From the IMG/VR virus record IMGVR_UViG_3300035182_001152: a stretch of DNA of 64,000 nt. The stretch is one strand, 5' to 3'. Positions 4 through 8,992 of this stretch are shown piece by piece (within the stretch, counting starts at the first letter, position 1; each line of letters starts with the position of its first letter). The DNA comes from a virus (lineage: Duplodnaviria; Caudoviricetes). A model generated the notes under the pieces. That model worked only from the letters and a program-made list of their open reading frames with translations. It was not told where the DNA came from and ran no database searches. A program made the position numbers and the translations under genes.

Positions 4-207
4 ATGTCAGAAAACCTAAGTACAAAAACGACGACATCCCCTGCGGTTCCGAATGTGAACCCAGGAGACCCAATTACGTCTACCACGTTTGAAGCAATGC
101 TGAACGTGTTGAACGAACTCGTGAACCACACTCACATTTTCTACGACGACTACAGCACTGCGTGCAACTGTAACTGCAACTGCGCCTGTTCACGCGGCAT
201 CCTCTAA
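4..207 (+). CDS. Cys-rich putative RiPP precursor / radical SAM substrate peptide (67 aa)
   Basis: Leader-like N-terminus with HTH motif, C-terminal core DDYSTACNCNCNCACSRGIL; directly upstream of rSAM operon. Confidence 0.75.
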   Translation: MSENLSTKTTTSPAVPNVNPGDPITSTTFEAMLNVLNELVNHTHIFYDDYSTACNCNCNCACSRGIL

Positions 208-225
208 CAGAGGCGTTATAACCAT

Positions 226-1122
226 ATGAAATACATCCTTGTTCGCCAAGGAGGTAATCGTGCTTCTGCCTTCTCAGACATCGTTGAGCAGGTCAATTAT
301 CAAGACGTACCCCAGGTTGGCTTCTACACGCAAGTAGCACCGAGTATGCGGTTAATTCGTAACCGCACTACCGACAATCACGATTCCCCCTTTGCGATTG
401 CCCGATTCCACGTCGACCCAGCACTGAAGGTCCAGCCTCCGTCACACTTTCGTCGAATTGACATGAGGGCTGTCGAACGGATGATGACAAACCACAAGTA
501 CGTGATATACGGTGTCGTCAATCCAACTCACCACGTAATTGATCACACAGTCCTTGACGGTGCTGTGTACGTCGCGCGGGATGCTGACGGTAAGTTGATC
601 AATGCCCAAACAGGAGATGTCCTTGGTGACTCCAAGGTAACGTTTATGACGGTGTTCTTTGCGTTTGTGCGCGTCAAGGGGTTGCCGATCTATCTGATGG
701 TACTCAATCCAAATCTACTCAGTGCGACGGATGGGTTTGATTGTTATCACGAAGAAACGGACACCAAGTGGATCATGTTGCCGGAACGTGACAACGCGCT
801 GATCGAGCGAGTGTTTACGCCGCAAATATATGACGGCACGTTGATTGGTAATGTGATTGTGCGCGATGAGGGTGATGGACAGCCGATGATCCAACTGTTC
901 AACGATCCATGCGGCATCCTGTACGACGAAAAGCACCTTCGCTCTGATGTGTTCATTAACGGTGTCGCAACGATTGATACCAATCTAAGCGTGTTTACAA
1001 TGGACGGCGCTGTCCGCATTAGCAGTCAAGGCCGTGGGTACGTTCGAATTGTATTTGACCTTGGTGACTACTTCAATCTGTCACGGACCGAACACCCTGC
1101 ACTGGAGTACGTCGTACTATGA
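226..1122 (+). CDS. Hypothetical protein in rSAM operon (298 aa)
   Basis: Long ORF, ATGA overlap with next gene; no family recognised. Confidence 0.8.
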   Translation: MKYILVRQGGNRASAFSDIVEQVNYQDVPQVGFYTQVAPSMRLIRNRTTDNHDSPFAIARFHVDPALKVQPPSHFRRIDMRAVERMMTNHKYVIYGVVNPTHHVIDHTVLDGAVYVARDADGKLINAQTGDVLGDSKVTFMTVFFAFVRVKGLPIYLMVLNPNLLSATDGFDCYHEETDTKWIMLPERDNALIERVFTPQIYDGTLIGNVIVRDEGDGQPMIQLFNDPCGILYDEKHLRSDVFINGVATIDTNLSVFTMDGAVRISSQGRGYVRIVFDLGDYFNLSRTEHPALEYVVL

Positions 1123-2789
1123 GCACAGCTGTCATTAAGTTCTACCCAAAGCGAACACTAACGCAAGCCCAACAGCAACGGATTGTTGATCACCAACCTT
1201 CCGTGCGAATCAATGACGACGGCACATTTGATACGTCTGTCCGCACAATCATCACCCCAAAAGGCGATGTCAAGGAGGTGTCGTATAAGACGATTCGTCC
1301 AGGTGTGCACGAGCGAATGATGAAGACAGCTGACGTATATGACTTGTTTGAAGACCTTCAACACATGAACCTGATTGTCACAAACGCGTGTAACCTCAGT
1401 TGTTCCTACTGCTACGAGCAGCATAACAAAGATTACGGTCGATTCACAAACGAAAGCCTAAAACAGCTATACAACTTCCTCGTCGCGTGCAACCCAAACA
1501 GCGGCAAGCTGTTTCAGTTCTTTGGTGGCGAACCCCTGATCCACAAGCAGTTGATTCTCGATTTTATCGCCAAATATCGTGACGAACTGCAGGCAAACAG
1601 TAAGACAACTGCCGTTAGCATTATCACCAACGGTATTCTGTTAACGCCAGAATTCATCAACGAGTACTTTGCGAATGACTTCGTTTGTATGAGCGTTAGC
1701 CTCGATACGGATGATGCTGAGATTGATCACCGTGAGATTGGCCAGGCTCGGATCGACAAAATCATCAACATGATTGGTCTAATCCCCTCGTACCACAAAG
1801 ACAATCATATGGTTAGCGTCCGTTGCACGATCGCAATGGAGAATGCTCCGCGGCTAGTTGAGTTCGCCAAACGCTTGTATGACAAGGGTCTTCGAGCAAT
1901 GGTAATTCATCCGCTGACGATGAGTTCCGTTAACGGCCACATGATATGGAATACTGAAGATTGGAACAACCTCCACACTAGCGTTAGCCACATCATCAAG
2001 ACGCTGCCTAACTTCGAGGTTCAATTCTCAGAGGGTGTCGGTGCCAAGGGCGGCAACAACTGCATGGTTGGTTCTGACATGATCGCTGTTGACGCGTCGG
2101 GTGATTACTCCGGTTGCCATTTCTTCACAAACCAGAAGGAGGCGGCCGCTCATACGATCCTTGGTAACTTGCTGCTGGACCAAGTGTACGTTGACCGGTA
2201 CATGAAGTTCCAAGAAACGTACGACCAGATGTTCACATCGGAGCCACAATGTCAAGCCTGCGATCTCAAGGGTTTCTGCTACCAATGCCCTGCAGGCAAT
2301 TCTGATTCTGGTCGTGGCCAGCTGTTCCGGCCAGACGATATGTGCCAGAGCATTGTACGTCTGTTCCTCGAACTGCAGAATGACATCGTGCGCAAGACAT
2401 TCAACGCTAAGCTACAGGAGCTGATTGGTTCTGTACAGCAGTACGGTGAACACTATGTGTTCAGTAAGGCAATTGTACACCTCCACCACTTCTACAAGAA
2501 TGGTCAGCATGCCACTGACGTTCAAGTTGATCCCAACCTCCCATACGAATACCTCGCCGCCGGTTTTATGGCAACAATTACCGGTGGCGACGCTAGCGTT
2601 CCGGTTGACATCAAGAGTTTGTATGAGGCGTTGATGCGCAGTAAGGGCAAACCAGTTAACGCGAGTATGGCACAGGGTACAGCTGATGACATCAACAAGC
2701 GTATCTTCTACCTAGCCCTACTACACATGGTTGTGCTGAACAAGAAGGGTGATGACTTGTCAAAACCGCACAAAATCATTAAGCTGTAA
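1119..2789 (+). CDS. Radical SAM/SPASM maturase
   Basis: CNLSCSYC, GGEP, ITNG, VSLD; SPASM Cys set CMVG..DASGDYSGC and CQACDLKGFCYQC..C. Confidence 0.93.
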   Translation: MSTAVIKFYPKRTLTQAQQQRIVDHQPSVRINDDGTFDTSVRTIITPKGDVKEVSYKTIRPGVHERMMKTADVYDLFEDLQHMNLIVTNACNLSCSYCYEQHNKDYGRFTNESLKQLYNFLVACNPNSGKLFQFFGGEPLIHKQLILDFIAKYRDELQANSKTTAVSIITNGILLTPEFINEYFANDFVCMSVSLDTDDAEIDHREIGQARIDKIINMIGLIPSYHKDNHMVSVRCTIAMENAPRLVEFAKRLYDKGLRAMVIHPLTMSSVNGHMIWNTEDWNNLHTSVSHIIKTLPNFEVQFSEGVGAKGGNNCMVGSDMIAVDASGDYSGCHFFTNQKEAAAHTILGNLLLDQVYVDRYMKFQETYDQMFTSEPQCQACDLKGFCYQCPAGNSDSGRGQLFRPDDMCQSIVRLFLELQNDIVRKTFNAKLQELIGSVQQYGEHYVFSKAIVHLHHFYKNGQHATDVQVDPNLPYEYLAAGFMATITGGDASVPVDIKSLYEALMRSKGKPVNASMAQGTADDINKRIFYLALLHMVVLNKKGDDLSKPHKIIKL

Positions 2790-3577
2790 TGATGAAAACA
2801 ACACACATTGCATTTTACCAAGACGCTCTGTACGACTGTCCTCTTCTCCGTGGTCAGGTGCTAACCGATATCGACGACCTGCGACTGTTCATGGAATATC
2901 ACGCATTCGCAGTGTGGGATTTCATGTCGCTGATCAAATCGCTCCAGAACCATATTGTACCGTCGGGCAATGTGTGGCTTCCGTCACCCGAATCGACAGC
3001 TGTTGGTCGATTGATCAACGAAATTGTCCTGTGCGAGGAAACAGACGACAACCTCGGCGGTGGTCATATTAGCCACTTCGATCTGTACATCACTGCGATG
3101 AATGAAGTTGGCGCCAACACAAAGCCGATCCTGTCATTCATCAACAAACTGCGAACCAATCGCAAGCTCAGCTTAAACCAGTTGCTGCTAGAACTCCCTC
3201 TGCCAGCACGGAAGTTCTGTGAGAGTACTTTTGCAGTAATTGCTACCGATCAACCCCATAAGATTGCCGGGGCGTTCGCCTTTGGTCGCGAACGGGTAAT
3301 CCCGTCAATGTTCACGCAGATCCTCTCTCAGATGGAGGCCACTGGAATCCAAGCACCAAAGTTCAAGTACTACCTTGAGCGTCACATTGACGTTGACGGG
3401 AACGCACACGGCCCAGCTGCGCTTGATATGGTTGATTATCTGTGTGGGGATGACCCAGTCAAGCACCTGGAAGCGGAACGAGCTGCATTGGATGCAATCC
3501 ACGCTCGGATCACGCTATGGAAGGACGTACAGCGAGTGATTGAAGACGTCAAGCGTGTCAAGTTTGGAGCAGCATGA
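2789..3577 (+). CDS. DUF3050 family heme-oxygenase-like (putative diiron) oxidase
   Basis: Motifs FMEYHAFAVWDFMSLIKSLQ, EIVLCEETD, SHFDLY, FGRE, YYLERHIDVDG..HGP. Confidence 0.85.
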   Translation: MMKTTHIAFYQDALYDCPLLRGQVLTDIDDLRLFMEYHAFAVWDFMSLIKSLQNHIVPSGNVWLPSPESTAVGRLINEIVLCEETDDNLGGGHISHFDLYITAMNEVGANTKPILSFINKLRTNRKLSLNQLLLELPLPARKFCESTFAVIATDQPHKIAGAFAFGRERVIPSMFTQILSQMEATGIQAPKFKYYLERHIDVDGNAHGPAALDMVDYLCGDDPVKHLEAERAALDAIHARITLWKDVQRVIEDVKRVKFGAA

Positions 3578-4647
3578 CGACACCAACACTCTCCGGATGC
3601 AAGAATATCAGCATCTACCTCGGCAATGTTTGCAACTTCAATTGCACATATTGTGACAGAGACTACATCAAGGAGTCGATCGGTGGTCAACATATGACCA
3701 CCGAGGATATTCCAAAGATCGTTGAGTTCCTCCAAGCTTCTGGTATAGCTGACAACCCCCCGGAAATGTTTAGCTTCCATGGTGGTGAGCCGTTCACATA
3801 CGTCAAGATCATGGACAAAATCATGGACGCAGTAACGTCAGCTGTCCCTGGCGACTATCCGCTATACATTCAAACGAATGGTAGCCAGATGCTTCAGCAT
3901 CGATGGTTCTTTGAGAAGTGGGGTAGTCGCCTTGAGATTAGCATCAGCTACGACTTCTTGTACCAAGACATTAACCGCACCCTGTTTGAGATCAACCCTA
4001 CGCTGGAAATGTTGAACCAGAACGGTGTTCGTGGAATCCAGTTCCAATACGTGATGCCAATCTCTAATCCGAAGGTGTTTAGCCTATCAGCATTGAAGGC
4101 GATCACTAACTTGTGCCACAAGAACGGTGTCAAACGGGTTAACCTAATCCCACTGCGGCACATTCGGGGCAAAGACAAGTTCAAGGTGATCCTTGACGAC
4201 CTTGATATTCCACAGTTCTTCGATGCGTTCATCAAGTTCATCCACATGCTGTATGTGATGAACATTGACGTTACAGTTGATGGTCACGGTGTTGGATTTG
4301 ACAAGCACTATTTCTACAACCATAAGTTAATGGTGTTGTCACCAGATGGTAACATCTATCCCGAATACGACTTCCTCGAATACAAGCGCGAAGAGACGAT
4401 CATCGGTCAGTGGCGAGAGCAGCAAGTTATCGAGCGTGTCCGTGATAATGAAGATGACATGCTGCAACCGAAGTGTGTTACGTGCCCATCCCGCCCACTG
4501 TGTGGGCTAAAGTACTTACATGGGATGTTTGGTACTGACCCAGCAACGGATAAGTGTGCGCAGTTCTATCAGATGCTGATGGTTACGATCCAGCACGCAC
4601 AAAAACTAAAACAACAACCAAGCTTCTTGCATTGGGTCGGAATATGA
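3574..4647 (+). CDS. Radical SAM protein with partial SPASM
   Basis: CNFNCTYC, HGGEP, QTNG; C-terminal CVTCPSRPLC..C; DGNIYPE instead of DGxxYPC. Confidence 0.9.
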   Translation: MTTPTLSGCKNISIYLGNVCNFNCTYCDRDYIKESIGGQHMTTEDIPKIVEFLQASGIADNPPEMFSFHGGEPFTYVKIMDKIMDAVTSAVPGDYPLYIQTNGSQMLQHRWFFEKWGSRLEISISYDFLYQDINRTLFEINPTLEMLNQNGVRGIQFQYVMPISNPKVFSLSALKAITNLCHKNGVKRVNLIPLRHIRGKDKFKVILDDLDIPQFFDAFIKFIHMLYVMNIDVTVDGHGVGFDKHYFYNHKLMVLSPDGNIYPEYDFLEYKREETIIGQWREQQVIERVRDNEDDMLQPKCVTCPSRPLCGLKYLHGMFGTDPATDKCAQFYQMLMVTIQHAQKLKQQPSFLHWVGI

Positions 4648-5828
4648 CAACAGAACAACGGCACTTCACACCCAGTGTACAGAACGTAACGAACTTCAAG
4701 GAATACTTCCTACAGTACGACGGGTTGAATCACGTCAGCCAAGAGCTTGGCTTTTCCCTGTTTAAGCGGTACACGTGTAAAGCAGGATGCAAGATGTGTT
4801 ACTTGCAGAACGACTGGATCGCTGACGAAGACTTCGGTATCTTCATTCCAAAGGAAATTGACGATCACACTGAAGCTCGCCTTTTGTCATTCTTTGAAGC
4901 GTTTTCTGACGTCGGCACGTATGATGATTTGGCATATTTGAAACGAGCGCACCCACACCTGTATGAGTTCTACAAGAAGCACAGCCACCGCCTCGTTAAT
5001 ACATCAATGTCAGACACCGCTTTCATTCAGCAGTACCCACTGCTGATGAATGAGCTCAACTTCAAGGGAATCTACGAGATTACGTTTAGTGATGTGTTCC
5101 TAAACAAAAAGAGTGGTGGCTTAGCGCATGATATAGTCAATATGCTGAAGCCTCTCCACGCAAAGATGCCCCTGCTAAAGATCAAGGTTGTACGAATCAC
5201 ACAGGAAGGTGAGAAGTCTGATGCCGTCAAGAAGGTCGTCGACTATGCACACAGTATTGGCATAGCAGTTGGCCTGCAAGACGATATCGTCAAGGGCGAC
5301 AACAACAAGTTGAGCCTTGATGTTGCTGACTACCAAGAGCTGAATTATTTCGCTCAAGGGTCTGAGCCGATGCAGGTCCTATCAGAGATTACCTACCTGC
5401 AATACACGTCGTCGTTTATGACCCTGACCGACACAGTATCGCCAACAAGTGTTCCATTCTTTGATGTATTGTCAACGGACGACATCAGCGTATTCCTGTA
5501 CAACTCCTTAGATGCTAAGTTAAAGACGTACACCCGATACACCAAGGAAATGGATAACACATGCGGCAACAAGCTGTTCGACTACTTTGCGTACGTATCA
5601 ACGTCGGTTGTGCTACATCCAAAGTTTAACTTCATCCCCCGGATGTCGCTGAAGCCGTGGACGGCAATGTACCATAAGCTGATAGCTCAGGGTTGGACGG
5701 AGACCAAGCTTGGTCTGTATCGACCGAACGGTGAGCCAGTGACACCAATCTTTACGATCAGCACAAAGCCAAAGCAGAAAATCTATCACATCCCAATCAA
5801 GTGCACTCCTGTAGGAGCAACTGTATGA
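4644..5828 (+). CDS. Divergent radical SAM-like protein
   Basis: CKAGCKMC motif; start moved to ATG 4644 (ATGA overlap); no SPASM Cys set. Confidence 0.7.
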   Translation: MTTEQRHFTPSVQNVTNFKEYFLQYDGLNHVSQELGFSLFKRYTCKAGCKMCYLQNDWIADEDFGIFIPKEIDDHTEARLLSFFEAFSDVGTYDDLAYLKRAHPHLYEFYKKHSHRLVNTSMSDTAFIQQYPLLMNELNFKGIYEITFSDVFLNKKSGGLAHDIVNMLKPLHAKMPLLKIKVVRITQEGEKSDAVKKVVDYAHSIGIAVGLQDDIVKGDNNKLSLDVADYQELNYFAQGSEPMQVLSEITYLQYTSSFMTLTDTVSPTSVPFFDVLSTDDISVFLYNSLDAKLKTYTRYTKEMDNTCGNKLFDYFAYVSTSVVLHPKFNFIPRMSLKPWTAMYHKLIAQGWTETKLGLYRPNGEPVTPIFTISTKPKQKIYHIPIKCTPVGATV

Positions 5829-7111
5829 GTCTGACCAAATTTGAGATCGTTCGCACAGGCGAACATTTCTACTACAACAACGAGAACAACGGCTTGCTGG
5901 ACGCCAACGGTAACAGCCTTAGCCGTGCTTTTGTACCCCCAGCTGATTGGAATCAGCTGGAAGACCGATTCGGTCGCACAGATGTTGTCAAGAACCCCGA
6001 AACAATCAAGATCACCCTGGGGCACGGTTGCAATTACAGTTGTGGCTACTGCATGCAAAAGGACATTGGCAATCCCGACGAGCGACCGGTCAATGGTCTA
6101 ACACCAATGCTGATCAGCAAGATCCGCCGCCACCTGGATCTGTCTGAGACGACACGGATTGAACTGTGGGGCGGTGAAACGCTACTGTATTGGAAAGACA
6201 TGATGCCGATCATGGAAGAATTTGATCGTGAGGGAGTTACTTGGTACATCCCAACCAATGGTACTCCCCTGATGCACAAGCACATTGACTTCTTCATGAG
6301 GTTGAAGGGCAGGGTTGCAATGGGGATCTCTCATGATGGGCCTGCGCATGAGATTACGCGAGGCAAGGAGTTCCTGCACAAGAAGGTTGACGTGTTCAAG
6401 CGGATCGAAACGGAGTGTGGTGAGCAGGTACAGTACAGCTTCAACCCCGTTATCAGTCGTACAAATTACGATCTGTTCGAGATCAACGACTTCTTTGTTC
6501 GATTCTTTGACGAGCACAGCTTGAAGTACAAACAGCTGAGTTTCGAACTCGGGCGCGTGTACGACGAGACGATGGCAAAGAACTCAACGCACCACGTGAT
6601 CAATGGTGAGCATATCCCAGCGTATAGGGACGTTCTGACGCGATACATGGATGCTCATATTGAGCAATTCCAACGGCTTGGTGGGGTTACACAAGCTCCC
6701 CTACTGGCGAACAATCTGTTCCATACAGGCATGGGCGTTCTCCCGTATGTGCGTTCGCTGCAGGAGCAAAAGGTTCCCTTGTTGAAGACGAACTGCGGGG
6801 TGGACGACAGTCGGTTGATGAGCATGGACACGATGGGCAACGTCCGCACCTGCCAAAACACCGACGAATCGTACAATGGCGGCAACTTGATGTACATCAA
6901 GGGCATTCGAATCCAACGTGTTGATCTCAATCGTGATGCACACTGTGGGTCATGTGAAGTCCGTCGTCTCTGCAAGAGCTCATGCCCACTTGACCTCGGA
7001 TCGGCAACGTTCCAAACCAATTGTGCTGTTGAGAAGACGCACTACCGGGCGATCCAGTTGGCTGCATTCAAGTTGTTGTTTGACAGTGAGATTCGCATGA
7101 TTGGCCAGTGA
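5825..7111 (+). CDS. Radical SAM/SPASM maturase
   Basis: CNYSCGYC, WGGE, PTNG, ISHDG; CGV..DTMGNVRTC and CGSCEVRRLCKSSC..C; start 5825 by ATGA overlap. Confidence 0.93.
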   Translation: MSLTKFEIVRTGEHFYYNNENNGLLDANGNSLSRAFVPPADWNQLEDRFGRTDVVKNPETIKITLGHGCNYSCGYCMQKDIGNPDERPVNGLTPMLISKIRRHLDLSETTRIELWGGETLLYWKDMMPIMEEFDREGVTWYIPTNGTPLMHKHIDFFMRLKGRVAMGISHDGPAHEITRGKEFLHKKVDVFKRIETECGEQVQYSFNPVISRTNYDLFEINDFFVRFFDEHSLKYKQLSFELGRVYDETMAKNSTHHVINGEHIPAYRDVLTRYMDAHIEQFQRLGGVTQAPLLANNLFHTGMGVLPYVRSLQEQKVPLLKTNCGVDDSRLMSMDTMGNVRTCQNTDESYNGGNLMYIKGIRIQRVDLNRDAHCGSCEVRRLCKSSCPLDLGSATFQTNCAVEKTHYRAIQLAAFKLLFDSEIRMIGQ

Positions 7112-7180: not shown

Positions 7181-8992
7181 ATGACCAATTACGTATTCAA
7201 GCACAGCGACCCTGCAGCAGGTTCGTTTCTAGTTCAAGCAGACCAGATCGACGGTACGTCGCGTCCTGGTAATGCGGCATTGTACATCAACCCCGTCTCA
7301 GGCCTCTCTGCAATCTCAGCCAATTCCTCTCTCGTCTTCGCTGGACAGGGAATTGTTGACTACGGCGAACTAGTGCAGAACAATCTGATCTACTTGATGG
7401 AGCACTTTGCCTATGCAACACGCCCTCTAAAGCCTGTACAGGGTCAGATTTGGTACAAAAACGCAGCAGGTGTAGACCCGTCCTTCCCGAGCGACCCATC
7501 TTCGGTCGGTCTTTATCTGTGGACAGGATCACTCTGGACGCCGATCATTACTGGTGCAGGCGGCGTACTTGACATGGGCGGCGCTCGTGTAGCTAACGTT
7601 GGAGATGCAATATCCGCCGGTGACGCAGTTAGCCGTGGCTACGCAGATGCACGCTACTTGCAGCTGTCTGGCGGCACAATGACCGGTGCAGTTATGGTTG
7701 CATCAGGCAACTGGACATTTAATTCCGGCGTTTCTCTGTCAGTGACAAACGCTCCGACAACCAGTTTGCATGTTGCCAATAAGGCATACGTAGACGCTGC
7801 TTCTGCCACGTCTGCCGGCCTAGTTTCTACTGAAGCTACTACCCGCGCAGCAGCTGATAGCGCACTTTCGTCCAGCATCTCTACGATCAACTCACAACTG
7901 CCAAACTTTGTTCAAGTTACTGGCGATACGATGACAGGCACACTGTCGATCGACTCTGGCGGTGGTATCGTTGCCCTCAACGGTTCCGGCACTATTAGTT
8001 TTGGCTCTCGTCGCTTGCAGCTCGTCGGAGACCCTATTCTAAACACTGACGCGGCAAACCGAATCTACGTTGATACAGCGATCGCTACGGCAATTGCGGG
8101 CGTTGGCGCTGGATCTAGTGATGGTGTAGTTGTTAGTGGTGACTTGAATTCATCAACTGGCGTGTTGACTCTTCAGCGCAGCATGGGTCTCTCAGACGTG
8201 GTTGTAGTCGGCTCGTTCGCTCCATTCTCACACGCCCACCCTGCGACCGCGGTTACATACGATCTGTCGTACGTGTATCCACAAAGCTACTTGACGACGT
8301 CGGAAGTAGGTGACACAGGCTTCCCCAATGTCCAACTGCAAGACATTATTCGCACAATTGACCAAAATTTGACGACATTGAACCGTTGCGTTGTTCGCAA
8401 ATTGGCCGTCGGCGACGGCATAACTACTACATATTCCGTAGGCGCTGTTGGTACCTACACTGTGGGAGATAATCGTCTGCAGGTGTTTGTTGATGGTGTC
8501 AAACAGTACGCTAGTGAGCACGGGATCAGCACTGTTGTATTCACAGATACGGGTATTGGATATCGATCAGTAATCCCAGGCGTCACGGGTGCGCCTCTCG
8601 TGTTCAACATCGCAGTGGACAGTGGTCCTCCAACAACTGTTTCAATTCCAACAGGGGCGGGATACACGTACTTGCAGTATTTCATTGACCTGCAGGCTGC
8701 TTTTAGTACACTGTCTATCCCTGCACAAGTTCGTGCGGACCAATTCTTTGACCGCATTGAGTTGTACTTTGTGTCCAACACTTCAGGTGCAGGATCTAGT
8801 GTATTAGTATCAAACACAGCAGGCCAAGCTTTTACTGTGATTACCACAGCGTCTGCGCCTGTTAACACGTCTGTGACAACGTCATACTCCTACAGCGAAG
8901 TCGGCAACCCTGGTGCAGATTCAACCTCCATCACATTCAACGTAGCACCTGATGCGGGTTCTGTTGTTGAATTTCTAACCTTCCCTGCTTAA
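7181..8992 (+). CDS. Virion structural / tail fibre-like protein
   Basis: N-terminal DYGELVQNNLIYLMEHFA..QGQIWY motif typical of large-phage virion proteins; three DAxxxxYVD-type repeats; Gly/Thr/Ser-rich. Confidence 0.75.
   Translation: MTNYVFKHSDPAAGSFLVQADQIDGTSRPGNAALYINPVSGLSAISANSSLVFAGQGIVDYGELVQNNLIYLMEHFAYATRPLKPVQGQIWYKNAAGVDPSFPSDPSSVGLYLWTGSLWTPIITGAGGVLDMGGARVANVGDAISAGDAVSRGYADARYLQLSGGTMTGAVMVASGNWTFNSGVSLSVTNAPTTSLHVANKAYVDAASATSAGLVSTEATTRAAADSALSSSISTINSQLPNFVQVTGDTMTGTLSIDSGGGIVALNGSGTISFGSRRLQLVGDPILNTDAANRIYVDTAIATAIAGVGAGSSDGVVVSGDLNSSTGVLTLQRSMGLSDVVVVGSFAPFSHAHPATAVTYDLSYVYPQSYLTTSEVGDTGFPNVQLQDIIRTIDQNLTTLNRCVVRKLAVGDGITTTYSVGAVGTYTVGDNRLQVFVDGVKQYASEHGISTVVFTDTGIGYRSVIPGVTGAPLVFNIAVDSGPPTTVSIPTGAGYTYLQYFIDLQAAFSTLSIPAQVRADQFFDRIELYFVSNTSGAGSSVLVSNTAGQAFTVITTASAPVNTSVTTSYSYSEVGNPGADSTSITFNVAPDAGSVVEFLTFPA

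What the first reader, a model, noticed from the sequence alone, without database searches (positions are those of the whole stretch)
4..207. Precursor has a virion-protein-like leader with an HxH motif and an alternating-Cys core
Seen: amphipathic helix ITSTTFEAMLNVLNELV, then NHTH, then DDY, then five Cys spaced every second residue, separated by Asn/Ala. Established: HxH motifs bind metal in trimeric phage fibres such as T4 gp37. Inference: the peptide may be a trimerising, metal-binding virion appendage whose Cys/Asn tail is crosslinked, rather than an exported toxin. No transporter or peptidase is visible in the operon, which fits a retained product.
Basis: partly seen in the sequence, partly recalled or inferred. 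Interest (0 to 1): 0.78.

Follow-up and report, generated by a model that had tools for sequence, protein, structure and literature searches.

The report
Phage peptide docking onto fibre-cluster partner
A 67-residue phage peptide is real and strongly conserved: its front half copies a histidine-bearing module found twice in a neighbouring protein that it is predicted to dock onto, and its cysteine-rich tail is probably modified by four radical-SAM enzymes, a system nobody has described.

Summary
It is under purifying selection and has at least 67 homologue clusters. It occurs in almost all of 53 related phage loci, including Ralstonia jumbo phages RP12/RP31, where it is unannotated.

The "leader" is homologous to a helix-HxH-DD module (hhalign 93.7%, E 1.9e-7). 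That module occurs exactly twice in a ~130-aa protein found in 51 of 53 loci. In this phage that protein is the N-terminal domain of the gene just upstream of the window.

A complex prediction supports a 2+1 hetero-assembly: score 0.61, best control 0.00. The invariant helix residues lie in the interface, and three second-position histidines (one per module) touch. The Cys tail stays free. A homotrimer is therefore less likely, though it was not tested.

Four radical-SAM-type enzymes always accompany the peptide. No protease or exporter was found in this phage or in conserved neighbours elsewhere. The operon sits among tail-fibre-like genes, and the partner family carries inserted variable domains like a receptor-binding protein.

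Virion residence, metal binding and the chemistry of the tail are all inferred. RP31 virion mass spectrometry did not detect these proteins. I found no paper describing the system. Earlier scan notes on this same genome saw the same operon; none had been followed up.

The parts
4..207 (+). 67-aa peptide gene (stop at 205-207)
   Evidence: conserved family under purifying selection.
4..66 (+). Variable N-terminal stretch, aa 1-21 (some homologues carry a longer extension of about 25 aa)
   Evidence: Alignments. In the predicted complex it runs along the partner's module 2.
67..153 (+). Helix-HxH-DD module, aa 22-50: helix about 25-41, H42-T-H44, D48-D49-Y50. Homologous to the two modules of the partner protein.
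   Evidence: hhalign 93.7%, E 1.9e-7. The A2 HMM hits the peptide. Invariant M32, L36 and L39 are interface residues, and H44 touches partner H57 and H125.
154..204 (+). Cys-rich tail, aa 51-67: S-T-A-(C-X)4-C-S-R-G-I-L. Probable substrate of the radical-SAM enzymes.
   Evidence: Invariant C54, C56, C58, C60, R64 and G65. X is N, D, E, Q or A. The family has 3-6 Cys. The tail is not in the confident interface. Its role as substrate is inferred.
226..1122 (+). 298-aa protein of unknown function, a universal neighbour of the peptide
   Evidence: No Pfam, NCBIfam or PHROG hit. AF2 pLDDT 82; beta-rich; C-terminal Ig-like domain with Z up to 5.6. RP12 ORF075 has the same fold, TM 0.72.
1119..2789 (+). 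Radical SAM/SPASM enzyme 1 (556 aa)
   Evidence: PF04055 at 7.8e-16. Best NCBIfam hits are PapB 1.2e-36 (126.7 bits, cut-off 340) and QhpD 2.7e-23. CxxxCxxC in 51 of 52 homologues and the SPASM Cys motif in 52 of 52.
2789..3577 (+). DUF3050 / HamA-type haem-oxygenase-like protein (262 aa). Accessory: absent from some loci.
   Evidence: PF11251 at 2e-81. Its position varies, and it is missing in L002-L004 and L032-L034.
3574..4647 (+). Radical SAM enzyme 2 (357 aa), with a partial SPASM/twitch-like Cys motif
   Evidence: PF04055 at 4.3e-10. CxxxCxxC and CxxCx5C in 44 of 44 homologues.
4641..5828 (+). 394-aa divergent radical-SAM-like protein
   Evidence: No Pfam hit; phrog_36229. CxxxCxxC kept in 43 of 43 homologues.
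5822..7111 (+). Radical SAM/SPASM enzyme 4 (428 aa)
   Evidence: PF04055 at 3.1e-8; weak SPASM hit TIGR04085. SPASM Cys motif in 42 of 43 homologues.
7181..8992 (+). 603-aa fibre-like protein closing the cluster
   Evidence: PHROG hits to virion structural and head-decoration families that the upstream 442-aa fibre-like protein also hits.

Best explanation
The ORF encodes a two-part peptide.

1. Residues 22-50 are one copy of a helix-HxH-DD module. The same module occurs exactly twice in a dedicated partner protein encoded in the same locus. In this phage the partner is the N-terminal 135 aa of a 469-aa protein with a Hint-like C-terminal domain. Its gene ends 21 nt upstream of the peptide gene, just outside the window.

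2. The peptide's module docks onto the partner to complete a helical bundle with three modules (2+1, a pseudo-trimer). The three HxH motifs meet at one end of the bundle. By analogy with the His6-Fe sites on the three-fold axes of phage fibres and spikes, they would hold a metal ion.

3. Residues 51-67, (Cys-X)3-5 followed by Arg-Gly, stay free. They are the substrate of the four radical-SAM-type enzymes that always accompany the peptide. The most likely product is thioether-type crosslinks between Cys and neighbouring Asn/Asp/Gln/Glu residues or other residues. Optional extra tailoring comes from DUF3050, and in other phages from an Asp/Asn beta-hydroxylase, a B12-radical SAM enzyme or a desaturase-like protein.

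4. The product is not cut out and exported. It stays bound to its partner as a small, heavily modified subunit of a tail-fibre-associated, receptor-binding-type assembly.

Shown here: the gene is real and conserved; the module is homologous to the partner's modules; each locus has the 2+1 gene arrangement; the enzyme set is constant; and the operon sits in a fibre-gene context. Predicted only: binding. Inferred: the metal, the chemistry of the tail, retention, and virion location.
For: - Real gene.
- Module homology: hhalign 93.7%, E 1.9e-7, peptide 14-51 against partner 95-132. The partner HMM also detects the peptide in most loci.
- Partner family: always two HxH modules. It is present in 51 of 53 loci. 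Of the other two, L027 has almost no upstream flank and L042 ends within rSAM1. In L028-L030 and L039-L041 the partner gene sits inside the operon, between the 394-aa gene and the last radical SAM gene.
- Complex prediction, partner domain plus peptide: score 0.61 against a best control of 0.00. That mark was reached by 58 of 80 solved complexes and by 2 of 110 mismatched pairs, and the counts hold only roughly here because my own alignments were used. Partner pLDDT was at least 72, and the runs agreed in at least 56% of contacts. The interface uses peptide residues 1-51, including invariant M32, L36 and L39. H44 touches partner H57 and H125. The Cys tail is not in the interface.
- Enzymes: four radical-SAM-type families are present in essentially every locus with their Cys motifs intact. 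The best family similarities are to thioether-forming maturases, PapB and QhpD.
- Extra tailoring in relatives: Asp/Asn beta-hydroxylase, B12-radical SAM and FA-desaturase-like genes.
- Retained or structural reading:
  - No protease or exporter in this phage's 10 kb upstream or among conserved neighbours.
  - Tail-fibre-like paralogues flank the operon in distant phages, and an LtfC-like fibre-assembly gene follows it in five loci.
  - Partner-family members carry a beta-propeller, a glycine-rich domain or other domains inserted between the two modules, or C-terminal Hint or other domains. This is display-scaffold architecture like a receptor-binding protein.
  - The tail is conserved rather than hypervariable.
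  - Only one confirmed hit among 185,579 species genomes, a 25.6-kb MAG scaffold carrying the same operon.
- Precedent for His6-Fe at the end of a trimeric helix bundle and for HxH-Fe in spikes: PMC4901313.
Against: - No direct evidence of virion incorporation. RP31 virion LC-MS/MS (32 proteins) lists none of ORF68-76, the counterparts of this cluster. That was gel-band MS, the smallest protein found was 12.8 kDa, and the peptide ORF was not annotated, so the absence is weak evidence.
- The partner alone folds with only moderate confidence (pLDDT 64.8). It already has three helices, so the bundle may have four helices rather than a clean three-fold arrangement.
- The complex score is the model's own confidence, and the two chains share a homologous module.
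- No sequence match of the module to any solved structure.
- The radical SAM enzymes score far below every curated family cut-off, so the chemistry is open.
- A small dedicated protein that binds a leader-like segment is also what a RiPP recognition or chaperone protein would look like.
Confidence: 0.5

Rival explanations
1. Released RiPP. The two-module protein is a leader-binding chaperone, playing the role of PqqD or an RRE domain. It presents the Cys tail to the radical SAM enzymes. The modified peptide is then freed, either by a host protease or uncleaved at lysis, and acts on the host or on competitors as a toxin, signal or anti-defence factor.
For: - The operon has a classical RiPP layout: a short peptide next to radical SAM/SPASM enzymes.
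- No RRE/PqqD domain was detected in the enzymes, so a separate recognition protein would make sense.
- The partner gene lies inside the operon in some loci.
- The predicted binding involves only the leader-like half.
- The proteins were not seen in RP31 virions.
Against: - No protease or exporter in any locus examined.
- The core is conserved rather than diversified.
- Partner-family members carry inserted beta-propeller or glycine-rich display domains and Hint domains, which a chaperone would not need.
- The operon is constantly embedded among tail-fibre-like genes.
Confidence: 0.25
2. One reading: the peptide alone forms a homotrimer through its amphipathic helix, binds a metal with 3 x HxH, and sits on the virion as an appendage with a crosslinked tail.
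For: - A helix with an a/d-type hydrophobic pattern, followed by a conserved HxH.
- His6 metal sites on three-fold axes are established in phage fibres and spikes.
Against: - Every locus encodes a dedicated two-module partner, so the module count is already three without homo-oligomerisation.
- The hetero-complex passes its controls.
Confidence: 0.1
3. Metal or cluster carrier. The CxCxCxC tail is a metallothionein-like or Fe-S-binding ligand set rather than a crosslink substrate. In this reading the peptide serves as a cofactor or redox partner for the radical SAM enzymes, which act on another substrate such as the fibre proteins.
For: - CxC repeats are typical thiolate metal ligands (general knowledge).
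- The repeat number varies from 3 to 6.
- Fibre-like proteins are always adjacent.
Against: - Asn/Asp/Gln/Glu are conserved between the first Cys residues, and R64-G65 is invariant. This points to a specific enzyme substrate.
- The nearest enzyme families are peptide-crosslinking maturases.
Confidence: 0.1

Closest known systems
Ranthipeptide/sactipeptide systems (PapA/PapB freyrasin, SCIFF/ScfB)
   Same: A short Cys-rich peptide encoded next to radical SAM/SPASM enzymes. PapB is the best NCBIfam match of enzyme 1 (1.2e-36). Carboxylate or carboxamide residues lie beside the Cys residues.
   Different: - The score is far below the family cut-off (126.7 against 340).
- There are four radical-SAM-type enzymes for one 17-aa tail.
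- No RRE, protease or exporter was detected.
- The core is conserved across distant phages.
- The leader is homologous to a partner protein's modules.
- The system is phage-encoded, inside a tail-fibre gene cluster.
QhpC/QhpD (gamma subunit of quinohaemoprotein amine dehydrogenase)
   Same: This is the precedent for a small Cys-containing polypeptide that a radical SAM/SPASM enzyme crosslinks (Cys to Asp/Glu) and that is then kept as a subunit of a protein complex. QhpD is the second-best match of enzyme 1 (2.7e-23).
   Different: - The score is far below cut-off (82.4 against 453).
- No dehydrogenase subunits are present.
- QhpC has a cleaved leader, a protease and an exporter (general knowledge), none of which were found here.
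- The context is a phage tail-fibre cluster.
His6-Fe sites of phage fibres and spikes (T4 gp37, P2 gpV, phi92 gp138; phi11 Gp45)
   Same: A conserved HxH, with three copies predicted to meet at the end of a helical bundle. phi11 Gp45 binds Fe3+ with six His at the end of a trimeric coiled coil (PMC4901313).
   Different: - In gp37, gpV and gp138 the HxH lies in a triple beta-helix of a true homotrimer.
- phi11 uses His-X7-His.
- Here the three modules come from two different chains (2+1).
- No sequence match to any solved structure, and metal binding is untested.
PqqD/RRE leader-recognition proteins
   Same: A small dedicated protein, co-encoded with radical SAM enzymes, that is predicted to bind the non-core half of the peptide.
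   Different: - No PqqD/RRE Pfam match.
- The predicted fold is a helical bundle, not a winged helix with a beta-strand-pairing leader.
- The partner is homologous to the leader itself.
- Some partner-family members carry inserted display domains or Hint domains.

Membership tests
Radical SAM/SPASM-matured RiPP (ranthipeptide/sactipeptide type) | Short precursor gene adjacent to a radical SAM/SPASM maturase | tested here: met
   The peptide lies within about 1 kb of enzyme 1 in nearly all loci. CxxxCxxC and SPASM Cys motifs are conserved.
Radical SAM/SPASM-matured RiPP (ranthipeptide/sactipeptide type) | Maturase scores above the curated cut-off of a named family (PapB, ScfB, CcpM, and so on) | tested here: not met
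   The best hit is PapB at 126.7 bits against a cut-off of 340. All others are lower.
Radical SAM/SPASM-matured RiPP (ranthipeptide/sactipeptide type) | Leader peptidase and/or exporter in the cluster | tested here: not met
   None in the window operon, in 10 kb upstream of the same phage, or among conserved neighbours of 20 loci. The 298-aa unknown shows no protease-like fold match, which does not strictly exclude one.
Radical SAM/SPASM-matured RiPP (ranthipeptide/sactipeptide type) | Cys-derived thioether (or other) crosslinks in the mature peptide | not testable with these tools
   Needs mass spectrometry or NMR of the modified peptide.
Radical SAM/SPASM-matured RiPP (ranthipeptide/sactipeptide type) | RRE/PqqD-like recognition domain | tested here: inconclusive
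   No Pfam PqqD/RRE hit in any operon protein. The N-terminal extensions of enzymes 1 and 4 were not folded.
QhpC-type retained crosslinked subunit | QhpD orthologue together with dehydrogenase subunits QhpA/QhpB | tested here: not met
   QhpD model scores 82.4 bits against a cut-off of 453. No dehydrogenase genes are in the locus.
QhpC-type retained crosslinked subunit | The modified peptide stays bound in a protein complex | tested here: inconclusive
   The complex prediction supports binding to the two-module partner (0.61 against a best control of 0.00). There are no experimental data.
HxH metal site on a three-fold axis of phage fibres/spikes | Conserved His-X-His | tested here: met
   H42 and H44 are invariant in 48 sequences. 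H55 and H57 are invariant in the partner alignment, and a second HxH (H123/H125 in this phage) is present wherever the aligned sequence reaches it. Every partner ORF has two HxH.
HxH metal site on a three-fold axis of phage fibres/spikes | Three HxH copies converge around one axis | tested here: inconclusive
   In the predicted complex, peptide H44 touches partner H57 and H125. This is a model only, and no coordinates could be inspected.
HxH metal site on a three-fold axis of phage fibres/spikes | Homotrimeric triple beta-helix context (gp37, gpV, gp138) | tested here: not met
   Here the HxH follows an alpha-helix, and the modules lie on two different chains.
HxH metal site on a three-fold axis of phage fibres/spikes | Bound Fe or Zn | not testable with these tools
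   Needs ICP-MS, EXAFS or a structure.
Virion structural protein | Detected in purified particles | tested here: inconclusive
   RP31 virion MS lists no protein of the cluster. The method had low sensitivity and the peptide ORF was unannotated.

The most novel reading that the evidence does not exclude
Phages mature a small subunit of their tail-fibre or receptor-binding apparatus with RiPP-type chemistry. A 2+1 pseudo-trimeric His6-metal bundle, built from a two-module scaffold protein and a one-module peptide, carries a single radical-SAM-crosslinked Cys tail on the virion. This would be the first virion component made by a multi-radical-SAM RiPP-like pathway. It would also be the first case in which a 'leader' is a structural module that is kept rather than cleaved off.
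Probability: 0.35. Interest if true: 0.9.

Novelty: new variant of a known kind. Interest (0 to 1): 0.8.

Why it matters
RiPP pathways are known as makers of exported antibiotics, signals and cofactors in cells. Here a complete pathway with four radical-SAM-type enzymes is conserved across many, mostly large, phages, inside their tail-fibre gene clusters. Its peptide's non-core half is a copy of a module in a partner protein that looks like a display scaffold.

If the product is retained, it would show that phages use radical chemistry to build or harden part of their host-recognition machinery. It would also give a new way for leader-like segments to work, as permanent docking modules. That would open a new class of post-translationally modified virion parts.

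The system can be tested directly, because RP12 and RP31 are cultured phages. Even under the rival reading, a released phage RiPP with a new type of recognition protein would be new.

Tried and rejected
- Megablast of window:1-8000 against phage records found no match. No whole genome is held for this window.
- Pfam, NCBIfam and PHROGs gave nothing for the peptide itself.
- A PDB sequence search with the partner profile gave no hit even at E 10.
- The ESM Atlas gave nothing usable for the 298-aa protein: feature scores were 0.81 or less and its own model has pLDDT 0.27.
- Fold searches of my 298-aa model found only generic Ig-like matches (Foldseek E at least 2e-3; VIA Z up to 5.6), apart from the RP12 orthologue.
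- The promoter and terminator scan of the operon region found no more promoter-like sites than shuffled sequence and only slightly more terminator-like sites, and nothing useful around the peptide gene.
- Sequencing runs: four DNA holders (sediment and microbial-mat metagenomes) and no RNA holder listed. I did not lay reads.
I repeated it with an alignment lacking that row.
- The homotrimer of the peptide, and peptide-enzyme complexes, were not tested because the cap is one job.
- Literature searches found no paper describing this peptide, the two-module HxH protein or the operon's function. The RP12/RP31 genome paper only lists the enzymes among 'other genes'.
- I considered the bacterial HXS defence system (a His-Xaa-Ser peptide with radical SAM enzymes, PMC13128918) and rejected it as a relative. 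The HxsB and HxsC models score no better than many other maturase families, and the peptide has no HxS repeats.

Full report
**Observation.** window:4-207 on the + strand is an ATG-to-TAA ORF of 67 codons. An identical protein on longer contigs of the same phage (L050-L053) supplied the upstream sequence, which has a GAGGGA ribosome-binding site about 7 nt before the ATG.

**Is it a real gene?** Yes.
- A protein search found 67 homologous clusters at E 2e-38 to 3e-14, several on contigs of 200-360 kb.
- In an alignment of 48 diverse members, M32, L36, H42, H44, D48, C54, C56, C58, C60, R64 and G65 are invariant. L39, D49, Y50, T52 and C62 are nearly so.
- In the last 40 codons, the nearest relatives differ by 23 synonymous against 6 non-synonymous codons (L002), 20 against 8 (L004) and 16 against 7 (L025). 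That is clear purifying selection on the protein.
- Ralstonia jumbo phages RP12 and RP31 carry a 65-aa orthologue that is not annotated in their records.

**The locus.** Behind the peptide lie seven genes:
- a 298-aa unknown (226-1122);
- radical SAM/SPASM enzyme 1 (1119-2789);
- DUF3050, a HamA-type haem-oxygenase-like protein (2789-3577);
- radical SAM enzyme 2 (3574-4647);
- a 394-aa protein with no Pfam hit that keeps CxxxCxxC in 43 of 43 homologues (4641-5828);
- radical SAM/SPASM enzyme 4 (5822-7111);
- a 603-aa fibre-like protein (7181-8992).

A search with enzyme 1 in IMG/VR returned 48 loci. In these, plus RP12 and a MAG scaffold, the set of peptide, enzyme 1, enzyme 2, 394-aa protein and enzyme 4 is essentially invariant. 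DUF3050 is frequent but dispensable; even the 71%-identical relatives L002 and L003 lack it. A protein of about 300 aa with the fold of the 298-aa unknown is always next to the peptide.

Enzyme 1 is most similar to the thioether-forming maturases PapB (1.2e-36) and QhpD (2.7e-23), but scores far below their cut-offs. Some relatives add a B12-radical SAM enzyme, an Asp/Asn beta-hydroxylase or a desaturase-like protein.

**The key finding: the 'leader' is a copy of a module in a partner protein.** In the same phage, a 469-aa protein ends 21 nt upstream of the peptide gene (L050:8570-9979). It contains two segments of the same kind as the peptide's aa 22-50: an Ile/Val-x-Ala-x-Asp start, an amphipathic helix, then HxH-x-x-x-D.

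RP12 ORF074 (125 aa) is the stand-alone version of this two-module domain. Profile-profile comparison of the peptide family with the two-module family gives 93.7% probability, E 1.9e-7. It aligns peptide 14-51 with the partner's second module, residues 95-132.

An HMM of the partner family finds one two-module protein in 51 of 53 loci. Of the two exceptions, L027 has almost no upstream flank and L042 ends within rSAM1. The same HMM also picks up the peptide itself in most loci. In L028-L030 and L039-L041 the partner gene sits inside the operon. Each locus therefore encodes exactly 2 + 1 modules. D48 and D49 belong to this module (HxHxxDD in all three copies), so the true tail begins at about residue 51.

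**Predicted complex.** The partner domain (140 aa) was folded with the peptide, each with its own alignment.
- The score was 0.61 against a best control of 0.00.
- That mark was reached by 58 of 80 solved complexes and 2 of 110 mismatched pairs in the tool's calibration. The counts hold only roughly here because my own alignments were used.
- Partner pLDDT was at least 72, and the runs agreed in at least 56% of contacts.

The interface uses peptide residues 1-51. The lowest-error contacts involve the invariant M32, L36 and L39, packed against the partner's helices. Peptide H44 touches partner H57 and H125, which are the second His of each module. Residues 52-67 are not in the confident interface.

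This supports binding but does not show it. The partner alone folds only moderately well (pLDDT 64.8) and has three helices, at 16-31, 38-53 and 107-121. The assembly may therefore be a four-helix bundle with three HxH motifs at one end, rather than a clean three-fold bundle.

**What kind of protein is the partner?** In 1.84 billion representatives the family has only 272 clusters at E 1e-3 or better, mostly of 120-140 aa. It is a dedicated family, not a generic fibre domain.

The longer members are informative. They carry a beta-propeller (P0126), a glycine-rich domain (P0211) or other domains of about 100 aa inserted between the two modules. Others have C-terminal extensions, including true Hint domains; P0182 scores 36.5 bits against a cut-off of 32.1. 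This phage's own protein has a weak Hint match at 285-323. A bundle that displays variable domains is the architecture of a receptor-binding or adhesin scaffold, not of a chaperone.

The largest conserved neighbour family around the operon, in otherwise unrelated phages, consists of tail-fibre-like paralogues on both sides. A homologue of the LtfC fibre-assembly protein follows the operon in five loci. In this phage the operon lies between a 442-aa and a 603-aa fibre-like protein.

**Protease or exporter?** None was found in the window operon, in 10 kb upstream in the same phage, or among conserved neighbours of 20 diverse loci. The 298-aa unknown was folded with good confidence (pLDDT 82, pTM 0.82). 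It is beta-rich with a C-terminal Ig-like domain and has no protease-like match.

The family is almost absent from cellular genomes. There was one confirmed hit in 185,579 species representatives, a 25.6-kb MAG scaffold with the same operon.

**Most likely mechanism (confidence 0.5).**
1. The peptide docks through its module onto the two-module partner and completes a three-module bundle.
2. The converging HxH motifs probably hold a metal. The analogy is to the His6-Fe site at the end of the phi11 Gp45 helix bundle and to the HxH-Fe sites of the P2, phi92 and T4 spikes and fibres (PMC4901313).
3. The free (Cys-X)n-Arg-Gly tail is modified by the four radical-SAM-type enzymes.
4. The product stays with its partner in a tail-fibre-associated assembly.

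Three features fit a defined structural element better than a diversifying bioactive peptide: Asn/Asp/Glu at X1, Asn/Gln at X2, and a variable repeat number of 3-6 Cys.

**Against this reading.** RP31 virion mass spectrometry (32 proteins) lists none of the cluster's proteins, although the method was insensitive and the peptide was unannotated. The chemistry, the metal and the location are all inferred.

**Rivals.**
- A released RiPP, with the partner acting as a new type of leader-binding chaperone (0.25).
- A metal or cluster carrier (0.1).

**Comparison with known systems.** The system works like a radical SAM/SPASM RiPP pathway, and perhaps like QhpC/QhpD, where the crosslinked peptide is kept as a subunit. 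It fails the membership cut-offs of every named family and lacks their protease and exporter.

The HxH module resembles fibre and spike metal sites in motif only. The secondary-structure context differs, and the three modules lie on two chains.

I found no paper that describes the peptide, the partner family or the operon's role. Earlier notes of this scan on overlapping windows of the same genome saw the same operon and the module repeat. None had been followed up. I reached the module repeat independently and tested it.

**Verdict.** Novelty: a new variant of a known kind, with a substantial chance of something more unusual. Interest 0.8.

Noticed in passing
L050:8570-9979 (same phage, gene ending 21 nt upstream of window position 4): The 469-aa partner protein has a C-terminal Hint-like autoprocessing domain that begins at ...LSH-CCFPADSF... 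(about residues 285-323). Pfam hits to Hint families are weak here but above cut-off in a family member, P0182. It may self-cleave, or ligate the N-terminal part, after assembly.
   Followed up: partly
L028:2137-4185, L033:10668-12515(-), L037, L038, L039 (related loci): A B12-binding radical SAM protein of about 620-680 aa (PF02310 + PF04055) lies next to the operon in six related phages. It is probably an extra tailoring methyltransferase.
   Followed up: no
L005:13460-13987(-), L018:1122-1652(-), L024:122-640(-), L026:2748-3275(-): An Asp/Asn beta-hydroxylase (PF05118, 4e-15) is encoded beside the operon in four loci. This fits a peptide whose tail and module are rich in Asp and Asn. A fatty-acid-desaturase-like protein (PF00487) occurs in L012, L018 and L026.
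   Followed up: no
L013:11922-12257, L021:11904-12239, L026:12182-12514, L038:13077-13406, L039:11489-11818: A 110-112-aa protein matching the PHROG 'L-shaped tail fiber protein assembly' family (LtfC-like) directly follows the DUF3050 gene in five related loci.
   Followed up: no
window:7181-8992 and L050:7232-8560: The fibre-like proteins on either side of the operon share PHROG families (phrog_14394, phrog_2647) and look like paralogues. The upstream one has a YadA-stalk-like segment and a T7-fibre-like segment.
   Followed up: partly
L001:10889-11086 (NC_041911.1 82888-83085) and the same place in AP017925.1: The peptide gene is not annotated in the RP12 and RP31 records. RP12 ORF075, annotated as hypothetical, is the structural orthologue of the 298-aa unknown (TM 0.72 at 13% identity).
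   Followed up: yes
It carries the whole operon: partner, peptide, four radical-SAM-type genes and DUF3050. It is probably a phage contig binned into a MAG, or a prophage.
   Followed up: partly
window:2789-3577 compared with related loci: The DUF3050 gene sits between enzymes 1 and 2 only in this phage and in L025/L045. In most loci it follows enzyme 4. It is inverted upstream in L017, and it is missing from the closest relatives L002 and L003.
   Followed up: partly
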